From an uncultured Thermoanaerobaculia bacterium (GTDB lineage Bacteria; Acidobacteriota; Thermoanaerobaculia; Thermoanaerobaculales; Thermoanaerobaculaceae), in NCBI GenBank assembly GCA_964594125.1, contig CAZQLL010000032.1, positions 1 to 42,406 of the forward strand: a DNA stretch of 42,406 nucleotides, written 5' to 3'. Numbering within the stretch: position 1 is the stretch's first letter; every line of letters begins with the position of its first letter. Position numbers and translations under genes: made by a program. Below, piece by piece: positions 27,041 to 32,817 of this stretch. The notes below the pieces were generated by a model. The model saw nothing but the letters and a program-made list of their open reading frames with translations, made no database searches and had not been told where the DNA came from.

Positions 27041-28315
27041 CTACGGCGCAACCGTCTCGCCGTCGCGCACGAACGCGCGGCCGAGCTGCACGAGGTCGAG
27101 GCCGGGGTACACCAGGCAGTTGGTGCCGATCACCGCGCGCGGCGGGATCACCGCCTGCTTGCCGATCACCGTGATGCCGGAGTCGAGGTGGGTGGGGAAG
27201 CGGCGGTTGGCGATCGCCGCGTCGCCGTGGCCGATGATCGCGCCGGCGCCGAGCGTCACCCCCTTGTCGAGGATCGTCTCCTCGATCGAGCAGCCGTCGC
27301 CGAGCACGCAGTCCTGCATCACCACCGAGCGGCGGATGCAGGCGCCCGGGCCGACGCGGACGCCGGGGAAGATCACGCTCTCGGTGACGCTGCCCTCGAT
27401 CACGCAGCCGCGGGCGACAAGGGCGTTGCTGACGACGGCGCGCGGTCCGAAGCGCACGGGCGGCCGGTCGCCGAGCCCCTTCTCGTCCGGGCCGGTGCAG
27501 ATGTTCCAGCTCGGCAGGTCGAGGCCGGAGGCCGGGTCGAGGCAGTCCATGTTGGCGTCGAGGTAAGAGGAAAGCGTGCCGACGTCGCGCCAGTACCCCG
27601 CGAACGGGTAGCACAGCAGCGTGCGCCGGCCGACCATCCCCGGGATGATGTCCTTGCCGAAGTCGAACCCCTGCTTCGTGCCTACGACCGCGCGCAGCTC
27701 CTCGACGAGCACCTCGTAGTCGAAGACGTAGATCCCCATCGACGCGAGGTTGGAGGCGGCGTTTCTCTCCTTCTCCTGGAACTGCGTGATCAGGCCGTTC
27801 CCGTCCGTAACCATGATGCCGAAACGGTGGGTCTCCTCCCACGGCACCTGCATCGCGGCGATCGTCAGCGCCGCGCCCGCGCGCTCGTGCGCCGCGATCA
27901 TCGCCTCGTAGTCCATGCGGTAGACGTGGTCGCCGGAGAGGATCAGCACCCGCTGCGGCCTGTAGTCCTCCATGAACCAGAGGTTCTGCCAGATCGCGTC
28001 GGCGGTGCCCTTGTACCAGTCGGAGTCGTGCTCGCCGGTGTGCGGCGGCAGGATCTTGATCCCGCGCTCGCGCCCCGACAGGTCCCACGGCTCGCCGCCG
28101 CGCACGTGGTCCATCAGCGACGACGGCTTGTACTGCGTCAGCAGGCCGACCCGCTCGAGCCCCGAGTGCATCACGTTGGAGAGCGTGAAGTCGATGATGC
28201 GGTAGGCGCCGCCGAACGGCACCGCCGGCTTGGCGCGCCGCGAGGCGAGGATGTTGAGGCGGCTGCCGACGCCGCCGGCGAGCAGCATCACCAAAGTGTC
28301 GCGCGCCGACCTCAT
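27041..28315 (-). CDS. glgC: Glucose-1-phosphate adenylyltransferase
   Basis: LAGGVGSRL...RAKPAVPFGG..YRIIDF; WYKGTADA; C-terminal left-handed beta-helix repeats. ATG at 28315. Confidence 0.9.
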   Translation of the reverse strand: MRSARDTLVMLLAGGVGSRLNILASRRAKPAVPFGGAYRIIDFTLSNVMHSGLERVGLLTQYKPSSLMDHVRGGEPWDLSGRERGIKILPPHTGEHDSDWYKGTADAIWQNLWFMEDYRPQRVLILSGDHVYRMDYEAMIAAHERAGAALTIAAMQVPWEETHRFGIMVTDGNGLITQFQEKERNAASNLASMGIYVFDYEVLVEELRAVVGTKQGFDFGKDIIPGMVGRRTLLCYPFAGYWRDVGTLSSYLDANMDCLDPASGLDLPSWNICTGPDEKGLGDRPPVRFGPRAVVSNALVARGCVIEGSVTESVIFPGVRVGPGACIRRSVVMQDCVLGDGCSIEETILDKGVTLGAGAIIGHGDAAIANRRFPTHLDSGITVIGKQAVIPPRAVIGTNCLVYPGLDLVQLGRAFVRDGETVAP

Positions 28316-29577
28316 GCCGTCACCGTGCTTCCCGCCGCCACTCGCGCCGGCCAGCGGCCCGGCGGCAGGCCGGCCGCCACCAGACAGCCGCGGCCGATCG
28401 CCATGCCGTCCGGCACCCGCGTCCCCTTGCCGATCACCGTCGCGCCGCAGGAGAGAGAGCGCGGCAGGGTGCCGTTCGGCGCCGCCTCGCCGTCGCCGAC
28501 GAGCGCGCCGGCGCCCACCACCACGCCCTTGTCGAGGATCGCGCGGTCGACCACGGCGCCCGCCGCCACCCGGCAGCCATGCATCAGCACCGAGTCGCGA
28601 ACCACCGCGCCGCGCTCGACCGCCACCCCGGGGGAGAGGATGGAGCGCTCGACCGTGCCCTCGATCGTTGCGCCCGCCCCCACCAGCGACGACACACAGC
28701 GCGAGCCCGGGCGCAGCAGCGCCGGCGGCGGGTCGCCGAGCGTGCCCGCGCGCAGGTTGGTGCGCACCTGCCAGCGCTCGAAGTCGGGGGGATCCTCGCC
28801 GATCGCGTCGATGTTGGCGGCGTAGTAGGCGTCGAGCGTGCGCGCGTACGCCCAGTAGCCGTCGAAGACATGGCCGTACACGCGCGCACCCTCGCGCACC
28901 ATGCGCGGGATCACCTCGCTGTAGAGGTGGAACCCGGTGCTCTCCGCCTGGTTCTCGCGCACCCGCGCGACGAGCGTGCGGGTGTCGAACACGTAGATCG
29001 TCAGCGAGGCGAGGTCGCTCTCCGGCTCGGGCGCCTTCTCCTGGTAGCCGACGATGCGGCCGTCGCCGTCGAGCGTGGCGGTGCCGAACTGGTGCGCCTT
29101 CTCGCGCGGCACCCGCTTGAGCGCGATCGTCAACTCGGCCCGGTTCGCGACGTGGGCGCGGATCATCGGGCGGTAGTCCATCGAGTAGATGTGGTCGCCG
29201 GCGGCGACCAGCACCATCTCCGGGCCGTAGTGCTCGATGAAGTTCAAGTTCTGGTAGATCGCATCCGCGGTGCCCTTGTACCAGTCGGAGTCGGAGAGCC
29301 CCTGGAACGGGGAGAGCACCTTGAGCTCGCGCGTGCGGCCGACGTAGTCCCACGGCTCGCCGCCGCCGAGGTGGGTCTGCAGCGAGTACGGGCGGTACTG
29401 CGACAGCACGCCGACCACCTCGATGCGCGAGTGCATCATGTTGGAGAGCACGAAGTCGATGATGCGGTACATCCCCCAGAAGGGGACTGCGCTCTTCGGC
29501 CGCTGCGCGGTGAGCACCGAGAGCTCGTCGACGCGCCCCCCCGCCAGCACCATCCCGACGATCTGTTTCTTCATCAA
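28312..29577 (-). CDS. glgD: GlgC paralog lacking the catalytic GGxGxR motif (GlgD-like regulatory subunit)
   Basis: Homologous to glgC throughout, but the N-terminus reads LAGGRVDEL instead of LAGGVGSRL. ATGA overlap with glgC. Confidence 0.75.
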   Translation of the reverse strand: MMKKQIVGMVLAGGRVDELSVLTAQRPKSAVPFWGMYRIIDFVLSNMMHSRIEVVGVLSQYRPYSLQTHLGGGEPWDYVGRTRELKVLSPFQGLSDSDWYKGTADAIYQNLNFIEHYGPEMVLVAAGDHIYSMDYRPMIRAHVANRAELTIALKRVPREKAHQFGTATLDGDGRIVGYQEKAPEPESDLASLTIYVFDTRTLVARVRENQAESTGFHLYSEVIPRMVREGARVYGHVFDGYWAYARTLDAYYAANIDAIGEDPPDFERWQVRTNLRAGTLGDPPPALLRPGSRCVSSLVGAGATIEGTVERSILSPGVAVERGAVVRDSVLMHGCRVAAGAVVDRAILDKGVVVGAGALVGDGEAAPNGTLPRSLSCGATVIGKGTRVPDGMAIGRGCLVAAGLPPGRWPARVAAGSTVTA

Positions 29578-29759
29578 GGCGATGCTATCAGAATCCCCAT
29601 GAGATGGCGCTTAGCCGCGATGGAGATTCCGAGCTCTCGCATGCCGACTCTCTTGAGCCCAAACTCCCGCGCTTGCTGACAGAGCCGTGTCGCAGGGTCG
29701 CCTCGCGTCTTGACAAGCCCCCCAATCTGCGATCCTCCCCAACAAGCAAGGAGGCCCAG

Positions 29760-30119
29760 ATGCGGACGATGCGAGTCAGGAAGACCCACAGACTGCTACT
29801 TGCTGGCTTAATAGCGCTCGTCTTGGGGACTCTTCCAGGGGCGATCCAGGCGAACGCTCCAATCAACATCGACTGCGAACCTCCTTCGTGGTGCCCATTT
29901 GACAATTGGTTCTGCTGGATGTTCGCAGAGTGCCACACGGTGGGTGGAGGCGGAGGCGGCGCCACGGACCCGACCCGTTTGTGCAGGGAGTGCATGCAGT
30001 GGTGCGAGGACCAATACGCGGTATGCAGGGGTGCGGCGGAGGGCATTGCTGGCTACGAGAGCTGCGAGGTTGCCTTGGAAAGCTGCGAGACGAGCTGCGT
30101 TTCAGACTTCAACTGCTAG
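29760..30119 (+). CDS. Secreted Cys/Trp-rich mini-protein with a Gly6 linker
   Basis: Perfect SD aaggagg 5 nt before the ATG. Signal peptide MRTMRVRKTHRLLLAGLIALVLGTLPGAIQA. Mature part is about 88 aa with 12 Cys. Lower-GC codon usage. The track start at 29604 is less likely. Confidence 0.6.
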   Translation: MRTMRVRKTHRLLLAGLIALVLGTLPGAIQANAPINIDCEPPSWCPFDNWFCWMFAECHTVGGGGGGATDPTRLCRECMQWCEDQYAVCRGAAEGIAGYESCEVALESCETSCVSDFNC

Positions 30120-30136
30120 AGTAGCAAGGAAGACCA

Positions 30137-30997
30137 GTGAGAAGCTCCGTCATACGCGTGGTTTTGCTGGTGCTCTGGCTCACCGCCTTGTCGGTGTCCT
30201 CTGGTGCAACGGATGTGCCGCGCGAGACGCGCGTCCACTGGACGATGCTTGATTCGATTGAGAGACTACCCGCGGAAAAGCAGCGCGAGCTCCGTTCCGC
30301 AACGGAGATCCCACAGATCACGATCATCCGGAGGAGTGAGTTCCCGTTGATCACGAAGGCCAATCCGCCGGCGGCCGGGGAAGCGATTCGGAGGTCGAAA
30401 ATCGTACTTGTCAATCCTGCATCTCAGGGTATACGGTTCTCGTGGGCGGAGAAGCGCGACTTCGAGAAAGGCAGGGCGGACTACGCTCTCCTCGTTTACT
30501 ATCCCACGCTGGTGCGGGACGAGATCCGTCTGTCCGTGGAGTACCCCATTCTCGGGCGGGACTTCGACTCTTACTTTGCAGCAGCGGCAGAGGCTCGCCG
30601 CAAGGGGTCCCTTGCTGCCGACGGTCAGCTCCTGGTGACCGTCGACTACTCGGGACGAAAGTGGATGCTGACGGTCGAAGATTGGCGACGCGGCCTCTTC
30701 TCGAGCGAGGACAAGGAGTGGCTCAAAGCTGCCGTCGACGGACGACTCAAGACCGCTCTCAACCTTGTTCTTACCGCCGGGTTTGGTCTGCCTGAGCTGC
30801 AGATGGCCTGCGAGTTGGTTGCCCTCCCGATGTTGGGTGACTACGAGCGGTCGTTCAGGTCTGCCGACGAGCTCATCAGGCCACGGGGCAAGCCGGACTG
30901 CGACTTCGACGCGTGGTTCGGCGAGCCATGCTCGTTGGAGCAGCAGATGGAGTTCAAGGTCAGGAAGAACCCGCAGGTGGCCCCTCCAGCGCCCTAG
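30137..30997 (+). CDS. Secreted hypothetical protein (286 aa) co-operonic with the Cys-rich protein
   Basis: GTG start 17 nt after the upstream stop; SD aaggaag. Signal peptide VRSSVIRVVLLVLWLTALSVSSGA. Lower GC than the surroundings. Confidence 0.6.
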   Translation: MRSSVIRVVLLVLWLTALSVSSGATDVPRETRVHWTMLDSIERLPAEKQRELRSATEIPQITIIRRSEFPLITKANPPAAGEAIRRSKIVLVNPASQGIRFSWAEKRDFEKGRADYALLVYYPTLVRDEIRLSVEYPILGRDFDSYFAAAAEARRKGSLAADGQLLVTVDYSGRKWMLTVEDWRRGLFSSEDKEWLKAAVDGRLKTALNLVLTAGFGLPELQMACELVALPMLGDYERSFRSADELIRPRGKPDCDFDAWFGEPCSLEQQMEFKVRKNPQVAPPAP

Positions 30998-31183
30998 CAG
31001 GGACGCTGGCGCCACTGTCGGCGGGGCGAGATCCCGTGCGGTGTAGCTAGCTTTCGCCGGGTGCAGCCTGTCACTGGTCGCAGGTGCGCCGGCAGTTTCG
31101 GGTCAGGCCTGTCGTCTTGCCTCATCGGCAGGGGTGGGTTGCCCGCACGTCGGCTCGACAGCGCCCAGATGCGGAATTGCGCA

Positions 31184-31300
31184 AACCCAGCGGTACATCC
31201 CCCAGAACGGCACCGCGCTCCTCGGCCGCTGCGCGGTGAGCACCGACAGCTCGTCGACCCGTCCGCCCGCCAGCACCATCCCGACGATCTGTTTCCTCAT
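31184..31300 (-). pseudogene. Relic of the glgD 5' end (first about 38 codons), a degenerate duplicate of 29461..29577
   Basis: About 90% nucleotide identity to the glgD start. The 65-aa ORF MRKQIVGMVLAGGRVDELSVLTAQRPRSAVPFWGMYR then diverges. Confidence 0.7.
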
Positions 31301-31528
31301 TGGCTCGATCCTAGCGGCGCGGCGGAGGGGGTGTCAATCGAGCTCGCGGTGGGCGAGGCCGGGCTGACGCTGCGCCGCGACTGTCACCCGCCAACCCCAA
31401 GCCGGCGCCTTCGCGGGTCGCGATAACGGCCTGCCGGGCTCAGGAGGCCTCGGTCGGGACGGCACCGGAGCGATCGAGCTCTCCCATCGCCATTGCGTCT
31501 CGCCCAGGAGTGTCGTACATTGTCTTAC

Positions 31529-31747
31529 ATGAGCGACACCCTGACCATCCGTCTCGACGGTGAGCTGGCGTCCAGGCTTGCGGCGGCGGCACGCGCTTCC
31601 GGCCGCACCCGCAGCGAGGTGGCGCGGGACGCGTTGCGTCGCCAGTTGGCGATCGTGCTCTTCGACCAACTGCGCTCGCGCGTGATGCCGTTCGCCGAGG
31701 CGCGGGGGCTGCTCACCGACGAGGACGTGTTCCGGCTCGTCTCGTGA
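31529..31747 (+). CDS. vapB: Ribbon-helix-helix antitoxin (VapB/CopG-like)
   Basis: MSDTLTIRLDGELASRLAAAARASGRTRSEVARDALRRQL. Its stop overlaps the vapC start (GTGA). A direct repeat TGTCGTACAT/TGTCTTACAT sits at the start codon. Confidence 0.75.
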   Translation: MSDTLTIRLDGELASRLAAAARASGRTRSEVARDALRRQLAIVLFDQLRSRVMPFAEARGLLTDEDVFRLVS

Positions 31748-32154
31748 AGGTCTTTCCCGACACGAACGTACTCGTCGCCGCGTTCGCGACGCGCGGCCTG
31801 TGCGCGGACCTGCTCCGGATCGTACTGGCCGAGCACGAGCTGGTGCTGGGGCAGGTTGTTCTCGTCGAGCTCGAGCGCGTGATGCGCGTGAGGCTCCGCG
31901 TCCCAGAGGCTGTGATCTCCGCCGCCCTCGATCTCCTGCGCGAGTTCCCGGTGGCCGCGGCGACCGGGCCGCTGCCGCGAATCCGCTGTCGCGACAAGGA
32001 CGACCTTGCCGTGCTCGCCTGCGCTCTCGCCGCGGACGCCGAGGTTCTCGTGACCGGCGACCGCGATCTCCTCGTGCTCGCCGGGAAGACGGGCATCCGC
32101 ATCGTCGATCCGCGGGAGCTGTGGACCCTGCTGCGAGGGGAAGCCGGGAGCTGA
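31744..32154 (+). CDS. vapC: PIN-domain toxin
   Basis: FPDTNVLV...D..D..LA.A....LVTGDRDL, with conserved acidic residues. Confidence 0.8.
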   Translation: MKVFPDTNVLVAAFATRGLCADLLRIVLAEHELVLGQVVLVELERVMRVRLRVPEAVISAALDLLREFPVAAATGPLPRIRCRDKDDLAVLACALAADAEVLVTGDRDLLVLAGKTGIRIVDPRELWTLLRGEAGS

Positions 32155-32753: not shown

Positions 32754-32817
32754 GATGACACGGTGGCGGCTTCCCGGAGCGACTGGATGACACGGTGGCG
32801 GCTGGCCGGAGCGACTG
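32754..32817 (+). repeat. 32-bp tandem duplication (two units, two mismatches)
   Basis: gatgacacggtggcggcttcccggagcgactg / gatgacacggtggcggctggccggagcgactg. Lies in the convergent ATL/mobBA intergenic region. Confidence 0.6.

What the first reader, a model, noticed from the sequence alone, without database searches (positions are those of the whole stretch)
29461..31300. Cassette is bracketed by a diverged direct duplicate of the glgD 5' end
About 117 nt covering the first 38 codons of glgD recurs 1.6 kb upstream at about 90% identity, with a different sequence beyond the start codon. The intact gene stays at the left. A roughly 90%-identical flanking duplicate is what a Campbell-type single crossover of a circular molecule carrying a homeologous glgD fragment would leave. 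It points to homology-facilitated capture of foreign DNA, not transposition or site-specific integration.
Basis: seen in the sequence. Interest (0 to 1): 0.6.

Follow-up and report, generated by a model that had tools for sequence, protein, structure and literature searches.

The report
Recombination scar: duplicated gene start around insert
In an uncultured Acidobacteriota genome, a 1.6-kb foreign two-gene cassette lies between the displaced original promoter plus first 37 codons of a glycogen-pathway gene and a rebuilt full-length copy of that gene, which is a clear but ordinary scar of recombination between two diverged versions of the locus.

Summary
Window 29464-29587 and 31190-31313 form a 124-nt direct repeat at 88% identity. 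Its coding part is 111 nt (37 codons) with 9 mismatches. The repeat brackets a 1602-nt, low-GC insert that encodes two secreted proteins of unknown function.

Twelve relatives have a single copy and no cassette.

Seven of the 9 differences are synonymous (P=0.001). The truncated copy is closer to orthologues in other genomes (5-9 differences) than to its neighbour (9). The copies are therefore diverged alleles brought together by recombination, not an in-place duplication that decayed.

No integrase, transposase, tRNA or terminal inverted repeat is present. The data cannot distinguish a circular (Campbell) intermediate from linear DNA with one homologous and one illegitimate junction. They also cannot show which copy was imported.

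Two facts were not in the finding. A 1.9-kb neighbouring gene (DUF6242_C) has been deleted at the same site. A 75%-identical cassette occupies the same slot, without the duplicate, in another metagenome contig.

This is a known kind of event and of modest interest.

The parts
28312..29574 (-).
   Evidence: Pfam NTP_transferase plus hexapeptide domains. NCBIfam glgC 321-346 bits and glgD 195 bits, all below the curated cut-offs. It is 85-89% identical in protein to homologues from other metagenomes.
27041..28315 (-). Second GlgC-family paralogue (424 aa), overlapping the first by ATGA; an operon partner
   Evidence: 48% protein identity to the upstream paralogue. The gene pair is conserved in all relatives.
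29464..29587 (-). Repeat copy 1 (c1): -13 to +111 of the intact gene, keeping only the -10 box TAGCAT (29582-29587)
   Evidence: Homology to relatives starts at -13. TG at 29589-29590 gives a TGnTAGCAT extended -10 (read from sequence; its function is inferred).
29588..31189 (.). 1602-nt insert with GC 0.62
   Evidence: Absent from all 12 relatives. Composition. The 172-nt left flank and the 114 nt at 31076-31189 match nothing in 171 loci.
29760..30119 (+). 119-aa Cys-rich protein with a signal-peptide-like N-terminus
   Evidence: Translation. No Pfam or NCBIfam family. Homologues sit next to the 286-aa gene in L085-L088.
30137..30997 (+). 286-aa protein with a hydrophobic N-terminus and a conserved C-terminal PDCDFDAWFGEPCS...RKNPQVAPP motif
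31190..31313 (-). Repeat copy 2 (c2): the displaced gene start, lying within a 65-codon ORF (31103-31300)
   Evidence: It has 5-9 differences from 11 orthologues but 9 from c1. No stop or frameshift occurs in its 37 codons.
31308..31337 (-). Ancestral promoter TTGACA-18-TAGGAT, now driving only the remnant
   Evidence: It is the only sigma-70-like site in 29300-31700. It matches L006 at 37 of 38 positions. The pattern is conserved in 9 loci by exact search, and L169-L171 carry it in the alignment.
31340..31426 (+). Last 28 codons plus stop of a deleted DUF6242_C gene, fused to -38 of the promoter
   Evidence: Aligns with the 3' ends of the 1.9-kb DUF6242_C genes of L003, L004, L008, L031 and L096.
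31532..32154 (+). RHH antitoxin (31532-31747) and PIN toxin (31744-32154); the right-hand conserved flank
   Evidence: Pfam RHH_1 and PIN_3. Syntenic in L004, L008, L031 and L096.

Best explanation
The locus is the scar of a recombination between two diverged haplotypes of one chromosomal slot in related Acidobacteriota.

One haplotype carried the ancestral promoter directly in front of the upstream GlgC paralogue. The other carried a foreign two-gene cassette abutting position -14 of that gene. Pairing in the roughly 124 nt around the gene start supplied one junction. The other junction, at +111 (31189/31190), is non-homologous.

The product is an insertion-duplication:
- the native promoter plus codons 1-37 are stranded as a remnant;
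- the 1.6-kb cassette follows;
- a complete gene is reconstituted behind a new upstream sequence that keeps only the -10 box.

Shown:
- the repeat itself;
- its absence, and the cassette's absence, in 12 relatives;
- the ancestral promoter on the remnant;
- divergence of the copies under purifying selection;
- the foreign composition of the insert;
- the lack of mobility genes.

Inferred:
- that homologous pairing rather than a recombinase made the junction;
- the form of the donor (circle or linear);
- that the intact operon is now expressed from the retained -10 (with a new TG giving an extended -10) or by read-through from the stranded promoter.
For: - Repeat confirmed.
- Empty sites: every relative has a single gene start preceded by TTGACA-N18-TAGCAT, homologous to 31301-31338. 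None has a second copy or the cassette.
- Of the 9 differences, 7 are synonymous and 2 are Lys/Arg. pN/pS is 0.09 and P=0.0012 against neutrality.
- The remnant differs from 11 orthologues at 5-9 sites and from c1 at 9, so the copies are not sisters.
- If the repeat were an in-place duplication, the unconstrained remnant should carry about 80% of the changes. It carries 2 of 7 polarised changes (P=0.004), or at most 4 of 9 (P=0.02).
- The remnant's promoter matches L006 at 37 of 38 positions and its 37 codons are open, so it was disabled recently.
- Insert GC is 0.62 against 0.74, and GC3 is 0.73-0.77 against 0.96-0.98.
- The cassette is a rare gene pair found in four other, different contexts, always with lower GC than its neighbours.
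- In L085 it sits in this same slot next to the DUF6242_C remnant, so a cassette-bearing haplotype of the locus exists in the clade.
- No integrase or transposase lies within 10 kb, there is no tRNA, and there are no terminal inverted repeats.
- Published precedents exist for one-sided homologous capture and for transformation-made duplications (PMC5361080; PMC3784515).
Against: - Only 124 nt at 88-92% identity, with a longest perfect run of 30 nt, is a poor substrate for RecA-type recombination.
- No relative shows either presumed parent exactly. None has the promoter fused to the DUF6242_C remnant, and none has the cassette joined to the gene at -14. L085 ends 141 nt short of the informative junction.
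- Evidence that c1 is a mosaic with a foreign 5' part is weak. There are 4-5 private sites in nt 1-111 against 0 in 112-308 (post hoc P=0.006), but P=0.06 after normalising for local conservation.
- c1 and c2 share one derived site, position 9.
- The DUF6242_C truncation points in the window and in L085 lie about 20 nt apart. The model leaves this as a coincidence.
Confidence: 0.6

Rival explanations
1. Same kind of event with reversed polarity. The cassette, c1 and the operon are native to a cassette-bearing lineage. The remnant (promoter plus codons 1-37), together with the right flank, is the tail of a fragment imported from a relative. That fragment was anchored by homology in the toxin-antitoxin/MGMT-like flank and joined illegitimately at +111. 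This is ordinary one-sided homology-facilitated illegitimate recombination and needs no duplication step.
For: - L085 shows the cassette directly next to the DUF6242_C remnant with no gene-start remnant, i.e. the proposed recipient layout.
- Private substitutions in c1 (4 of 111, 3.6%) match the rest of the gene (34 of 1152, 3.0%), as expected if c1 is contiguous native sequence.
- The mechanism needs no circle and no sister chromatid.
Against: - It needs a donor with the promoter fused to the DUF6242_C remnant, and none was observed among relatives.
- The insert is still strongly atypical in GC3, which fits recent rather than long residence.
- The window and L085 cassettes are only 75% identical.
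- It does not explain the 114 unmatched nucleotides.
Confidence: 0.15
2. Site-specific integration of an element that targets the 5' end of this gene and carries its own replacement gene start, as SXT does at prfC. The element was later reduced by deletion to 1.6 kb, or was mobilised in trans.
For: - The repeat ends in an 18-nt perfect block (nt 94-111) exactly at the inner junction.
- Sequence similarity exists only on the side needed to rebuild the gene.
- The replacement start keeps a -10 box.
- That e14 behaves in the same way at icd is from my own knowledge.
Against: - No integrase or recombinase gene lies in the insert or within 10 kb.
- The other three cassette loci with sequenced flanks (L086-L088) have no flanking direct repeats and no shared target.
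- None of about 160 loci anchored on this gene family carries the cassette.
Confidence: 0.12
3. In-place event. Foreign DNA was inserted at +111 with a local duplication of -13 to +111 (replication slippage or template switching), and the two copies then diverged where they sit.
For: - One shared derived site, position 9 AAA, is found in both copies and in no relative.
- The complex local history, including the DUF6242_C deletion and the unmatched 114 nt, is compatible with template switching.
Against: - The copies are not each other's nearest relatives.
- Differences are 7:2 synonymous (P=0.0012).
- The constrained copy carries more changes than the free one (P=0.004-0.02).
- Positions -5 to -1 differ at 5 of 5 sites, while the remnant's promoter is 37 of 38 identical to L006.
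Confidence: 0.08
4. Assembly artefact that joins two strains.
For: The source is a metagenome. Both copies are about 90% identical, as strain variants would be.
Against: - Three records made by different pipelines (NCBI 42.4 kb, JGI 93 kb, Logan 22 kb) agree base for base.
- A k-mer chimera between the copies would continue into the gene, not into the unrelated sequence at 31189.
Confidence: 0.03

Closest known systems
Campbell-type insertion-duplication (single crossover of a circle carrying an internal or 5' gene fragment)
   Same: The map matches: direct repeats of the homologous fragment flank the insert, one truncated copy keeps the native promoter, and one complete copy lies behind donor sequence.
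   Different: The circular donor is not demonstrated. The insert has no replicon, homology is only 124 nt, and the copies are 8-12% diverged. A linear route gives the same map.
Homology-facilitated illegitimate recombination (de Vries and Wackernagel 2002; Prudhomme et al. 2002; Meier and Wackernagel 2003, as cited in PMC5361080)
   Same: One junction lies in homology and the other in non-homologous sequence, and foreign DNA without mobility genes is captured.
   Different: From my own knowledge, classical products delete recipient DNA instead of duplicating the anchor. A duplication would need pairing on a sister chromatid, as in transformation-made merodiploids (PMC3784515), or the reversed polarity of rival 1. 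Microhomology at 31189/31190 cannot be checked without the donor sequence.
Displacement of T6SS effector, Rhs and CDI toxin ends, leaving orphan fragments (PMC5361080)
   Same: An incoming module anchored in a conserved gene segment displaces the resident version, which survives next to it as a diverged fragment.
   Different: Those cases displace 3' ends of toxin genes and have a clear selective logic (immunity retention). Here the 5' end and promoter of a housekeeping sugar-nucleotide gene are displaced.
Integrative elements that rebuild their target gene (SXT/R391 at the 5' end of prfC, PMC2791158; e14 at icd, from my own knowledge)
   Same: The element side supplies a diverged replacement gene end. 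A perfect identity block lies at the crossover edge.
   Different: No integrase is present, the insert is 1.6 kb, and other copies of the cassette have no att-like repeats.

Membership tests
Campbell-type insertion-duplication | Direct repeats of the homologous segment bracket the inserted DNA | tested here: met
   A 124-nt repeat at 29464-29587 and 31190-31313 flanks the 1602-nt insert.
Campbell-type insertion-duplication | One truncated copy sits on the native promoter and one complete copy sits behind donor sequence | tested here: met
   The remnant carries the ancestral TTGACA-18-TAGGAT promoter. The intact copy matches relatives only from -13.
Campbell-type insertion-duplication | An uninterrupted empty site exists in relatives | tested here: met
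   Twelve relatives have a single copy and no cassette.
Campbell-type insertion-duplication | The two repeats are reciprocal donor/recipient chimeras around one crossover point | tested here: inconclusive
   c1-private sites are 54, 90 and 93. c2-private sites are 39 and 80. Enrichment of private sites in c1 gives P=0.06. The crossover could lie in any of the 30-, 25- or 18-nt identical runs.
Campbell-type insertion-duplication | The donor molecule is circular | not testable with these tools
   This needs reads or PCR for a circular form, or a donor genome.
Homology-facilitated illegitimate recombination | The second junction lies at a 3-10 nt microhomology between donor and recipient | not testable with these tools
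   The donor sequence beyond 31189 is unknown. The 114 nt next to the junction match nothing.
Site-specific integrative element | A tyrosine or serine recombinase gene lies in or next to the element | tested here: not met
   Pfam annotation of all genes within 10 kb on both sides shows none. The two insert proteins match no family.
Site-specific integrative element | An identical core sits at the edge of the repeat, with the element supplying the replacement gene end | tested here: met
   An 18-nt perfect block (nt 94-111) lies at the inner junction, and similarity exists only on the gene-rebuilding side. This is also expected by chance under the homologous model.
Site-specific integrative element | The same target or att-like repeats surround other copies of the element | tested here: not met
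   L086-L088 have different contexts and no flanking direct repeats of 25 nt or more that bracket the cassette.
Transposon / insertion sequence | Transposase, terminal inverted repeats and a short target-site duplication | tested here: not met
   No transposase is present. There are no terminal inverted repeats above chance level. The 'duplication' is 124 nt and diverged.
GlgD (TIGR02092) regulatory subunit | Score at or above the curated cut-off of 236.6 bits | tested here: not met
   The score is 195 bits. The glgC models score higher (321-346 bits) but are also below their cut-offs. The protein is a GlgC-family paralogue, and 'glgD' is only a label.

The most novel reading that the evidence does not exclude
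The cassette is a non-autonomous integrating module that carries a homology or att handle (-13 to +111 of the GlgC paralogue, including a -10 box and a new TG for an extended -10). On this reading it lands repeatedly at this gene, re-promotes it, and can excise again through the 124-nt repeats. It would then act as a reversible switch between native and cassette-linked expression of the glycogen-precursor operon. The presence of a diverged cassette in the same slot in L085 would reflect repeated targeting rather than shared ancestry.
Probability: 0.07. Interest if true: 0.55.

Novelty: new member of a known kind. Interest (0 to 1): 0.3.

Why it matters
It is a clean natural example, in an uncultured Acidobacteriota lineage, of foreign genes without any mobility machinery being fixed in a chromosome through a short, diverged stretch of homology. 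The displaced promoter and gene start are preserved well enough to date and polarise the event.

It also shows that the slot between the toxin-antitoxin pair and the GlgC operon is a replaceable position for secreted-protein genes. It identifies a rare, uncharacterised secreted two-protein module.

It does not reveal a new mechanism.

Tried and rejected
- Mosaic test on the intact gene. The 5 private sites in nt 1-111 against 0 in nt 112-308 looked significant (P=0.006). With 11 outgroups and normalisation for local conservation it fell to P=0.06, so I do not use it to place the crossover.
- Search for a donor layout. The metagenome and genome scans anchored on the gene, the protein searches with both cassette proteins and all 12 contig look-ups found no contig joining the cassette to a full gene. 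L085 stops 141 nt short.
- Origin of the 114 nt at 31076-31189 and of the 172-nt left flank. There were no blastn or tblastx matches in 171 loci and no Rfam family.
- The 13-nt exact repeat near both ends of the insert. There is no extended similarity around it, so I treat it as unexplained and probably chance.
- The 14-nt inverted match across junction 31189/31190 (I8). It is at the level of many other chance inverted repeats in the list.
- Prudhomme et al. 2002 (PMC122325) is not held in the library.
Full report
**1. What is in the sequence**

The minus strand carries two overlapping GlgC-family genes, 28312-29574 (420 aa) and 27041-28315 (424 aa). They are 48% identical in protein. Both score below the NCBIfam cut-offs for glgC and for glgD, so 'glgD' is only a label for the upstream paralogue.

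The repeat finder gives a single long direct repeat, 29464-29587 versus 31190-31313: 124 nt at 88% identity, 1726 nt apart. In gene orientation it spans -13 to +111. The coding 111 nt (37 codons) differ at 9 sites. Upstream, only TAGCATCG/TAGGATCG is shared.

The upstream copy (c2) opens a 65-codon ORF (31103-31300) that leaves the gene's sequence after codon 37. Between the copies lie 1602 nt (29588-31189). This insert has GC 0.62 against 0.74 on both sides. Its GC3 is 0.73-0.77 against 0.96-0.98 in the GlgC genes.

The insert carries two plus-strand ORFs with hydrophobic N-termini:
- a 119-aa Cys-rich protein at 29760-30119;
- a 286-aa protein at 30137-30997.

Neither matches Pfam or NCBIfam.

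**2. Source and reality of the arrangement**

The window is an Acidobacteriota metagenome contig. Its closest GTDB representative is an uncultured Acidobacteriota MAG, L096, at 83% protein identity. Identical sequence occurs in a 93-kb JGI contig and a 22-kb Logan contig.

A strain chimera made through k-mers shared by the two copies would continue into the gene. Instead the sequence continues into unrelated DNA at 31189, so an assembly artefact is unlikely. I could not show that the samples are independent.

**3. Empty sites in relatives**

I obtained DNA for eleven close relatives (79-88% nt identity in the gene): L003, L004, L005, L006, L007, L008, L031, L096, L169, L170 and L171. A twelfth, more distant relative is L091.

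Each has one gene start, no cassette and no second copy. In all of them the ATG is preceded by TTGACA-N18-TAGCATCG, ending 7-8 nt before the start codon. This is a strongly conserved promoter, probably for a leaderless mRNA (my inference).

In the window that promoter sits in front of the remnant, at 31337-31308 as TTGACA-18-TAGGAT. It is the only sigma-70-like site between 29300 and 31700, and it matches L006 at 37 of 38 positions. The intact copy (c1) matches the relatives only from -13. It keeps the -10 hexamer but has lost the -35.

**4. A second rearrangement at the same place**

From 31340 the window does not continue with native upstream DNA. In six relatives a 1.9-kb DUF6242_C gene lies divergently between the RHH-PIN toxin-antitoxin pair (or the MGMT-like gene) and the GlgC operon. 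Some relatives have an additional cadherin-like gene there.

The window retains only the last 28 codons and stop of DUF6242_C (31340-31426). They are fused within 2 nt to position -38 of the promoter. The slot is thus variable among relatives. In the window, both a deletion and an insertion have occurred there.

**5. The copies are diverged alleles, not a decayed local duplicate**

- Seven of the nine differences are synonymous third-position changes and two are Lys/Arg. pN/pS is 0.09, and P=0.0012 under neutrality.
- c2 differs from the eleven orthologues at 5-9 sites (mean about 7) but from c1 at 9. c1 differs from the orthologues at 8-11. The two copies are not each other's closest relatives.
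- Polarising with the outgroups puts sites 54, 90, 93 (and 87) on c1 and sites 39 and 80 on c2. After an in-place duplication the unconstrained remnant should take about 80% of the changes. It has 2 of 7 (P=0.004), or at most 4 of 9 (P=0.02).
- The remnant has no stop or frameshift and an almost unchanged promoter, so it lost its gene recently.
- Positions -5 to -1 of c1 differ from c2 and from most relatives at every site.

Most of the divergence therefore accumulated while both sequences were the starts of working genes in different lineages. One shared derived site (position 9) is the only signal in the other direction.

**6. Where the cassette comes from**

The 286-aa protein has only seven homologues among 5.8 billion clustered proteins. 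In all four other loci with DNA it is preceded by a homologue of the Cys-rich gene. Contexts differ in L086, L087 and L088. In every locus the pair has lower GC than its surroundings. It behaves as a horizontally moving two-gene module without its own mobility genes.

The fifth locus, L085 (a 1729-nt Logan contig), is the informative one. Its cassette is 75% identical in nt to the window's. It is followed directly by the DUF6242_C 3' remnant, with no gene-start remnant in between. Its DUF6242_C remnant is about 20 nt longer than the window's.

A cassette-bearing haplotype of this same slot therefore exists in another lineage of the clade. The contig ends 141 nt upstream of the Cys-rich gene, so the junction with the GlgC gene cannot be seen.

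**7. Mechanism**

The map is: promoter plus codons 1-37, then the insert, then a complete gene whose first approximately 124 nt are a diverged allele. This is the map of an insertion-duplication produced by one exchange in homology and one non-homologous junction.

Several routes lead to it.
- (a) A circle carrying the cassette and -13 to +111 of a homeologous gene, integrated by a single crossover.
- (b) A linear fragment from a cassette-bearing relative, with one homologous and one illegitimate junction. The duplication would then be made by pairing on a sister chromatid, as shown for transformation-made merodiploids (PMC3784515).
- (c) The reverse polarity. A linear fragment from a relative is anchored in the toxin-antitoxin flank and ends at +111, joined illegitimately next to a resident cassette. 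This is classical homology-facilitated illegitimate recombination (as cited in PMC5361080).
- (d) Site-specific integration of an element that rebuilds its target, as SXT does at prfC (PMC2791158).

Route (d) fits the 18-nt perfect block at the inner edge (nt 94-111). However, there is no recombinase within 10 kb, and the other cassette loci have no att-like repeats.

Routes (a) to (c) cannot be separated with the present data. The test for a mosaic c1 is suggestive only: 5 private sites in nt 1-111 against 0 in nt 112-308, P=0.006 post hoc, but P=0.06 once normalised. The private-site density in c1 equals that of the rest of the gene.

I therefore commit to recombination between two diverged haplotypes anchored in the gene start (0.6). 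Within that, the donor form and polarity stay open. Transposition is excluded.

**8. Consequences (inferred)**

The intact operon has lost its -35 box. The junction places TG two bases before the retained TAGCAT, giving an extended -10 (TGnTAGCAT). The only -35 candidate at 17 nt, GCGCCA, matches 3 of 6 positions.

Alternatively, the stranded promoter may read through the remnant and the antisense strand of the cassette into the operon. Only one weak terminator-like site lies on that path, and it is at chance level.

**9. Comparison and novelty**

The closest known cases are:
- laboratory and natural Campbell insertion-duplications;
- homology-facilitated illegitimate recombination;
- displacement of T6SS, Rhs and CDI gene ends that leaves orphan fragments (PMC5361080);
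- integrative elements that rebuild their target gene.

This locus is a new, well-preserved instance of that known kind in an uncultured phylum, not a new mechanism.

**10. Unexplained**

- The near-coincident DUF6242_C breakpoints in the window and in L085.
- The 114 unmatched nucleotides at 31076-31189.
- A 13-nt exact repeat near both ends of the insert.

Noticed in passing
window 31308-31337 (-); L003-L008, L031, L091, L096, L169-L171 just upstream of the gene: The TTGACA-N18-TAGCATCG promoter ends 7-8 nt before the ATG. It is conserved even in a relative with 67% protein identity, and there is no Shine-Dalgarno sequence, so the mRNA of the upstream GlgC paralogue is probably leaderless.
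   Followed up: partly
window 31340-31426 (+); L085 about 1476-1590: The window keeps the last 28 codons of a deleted DUF6242_C gene. In L085 the same gene is truncated about 20 nt further upstream and fused to the cassette instead. Two different junctions lie almost at the same point of a 1.9-kb gene.
   Followed up: partly
[not shown]
   Followed up: partly
L085 about 300-400: The Cys-rich gene of L085 appears frameshifted relative to the window and L086. The Gly-rich middle is read in another frame. This may be a pseudogene or an assembly error.
   Followed up: no
window 29754-29766 and 31163-31175: The exact 13-nt direct repeat GCCCAGATGCGGA lies over the start codon of the Cys-rich gene and 26 nt from the right end of the insert. 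These are the only two occurrences in the window (0.11 expected), and there is no extended similarity around them.
   Followed up: yes
window 31076-31189: These 114 nt lie between the cassette 3' flank (shared with L085) and the remnant. They match nothing in 171 fetched loci and no Rfam family.
   Followed up: yes
L003-L005, L008, L031, L096, L169-L171, between the MGMT-like gene and the GlgC operon: The slot is variable among relatives. It holds DUF6242_C alone, DUF6242_C plus a cadherin-like gene, or a split DUF6242_C with IS110 nearby. The RHH-PIN pair is present or absent, and L004 has an extra PemK toxin.
   Followed up: partly
window 32754-32817: A 32-nt unit is repeated in tandem (94% identity) just downstream of the MGMT-like DNA_binding_1 gene.
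   Followed up: no
window 27041-29574: Both GlgC paralogues fall below the NCBIfam equivalog cut-offs for glgC and glgD. The pair overlaps by ATGA and is conserved across the clade. It may be a heteromeric ADP-glucose pyrophosphorylase distinct from the Firmicutes GlgC/GlgD.
   Followed up: no
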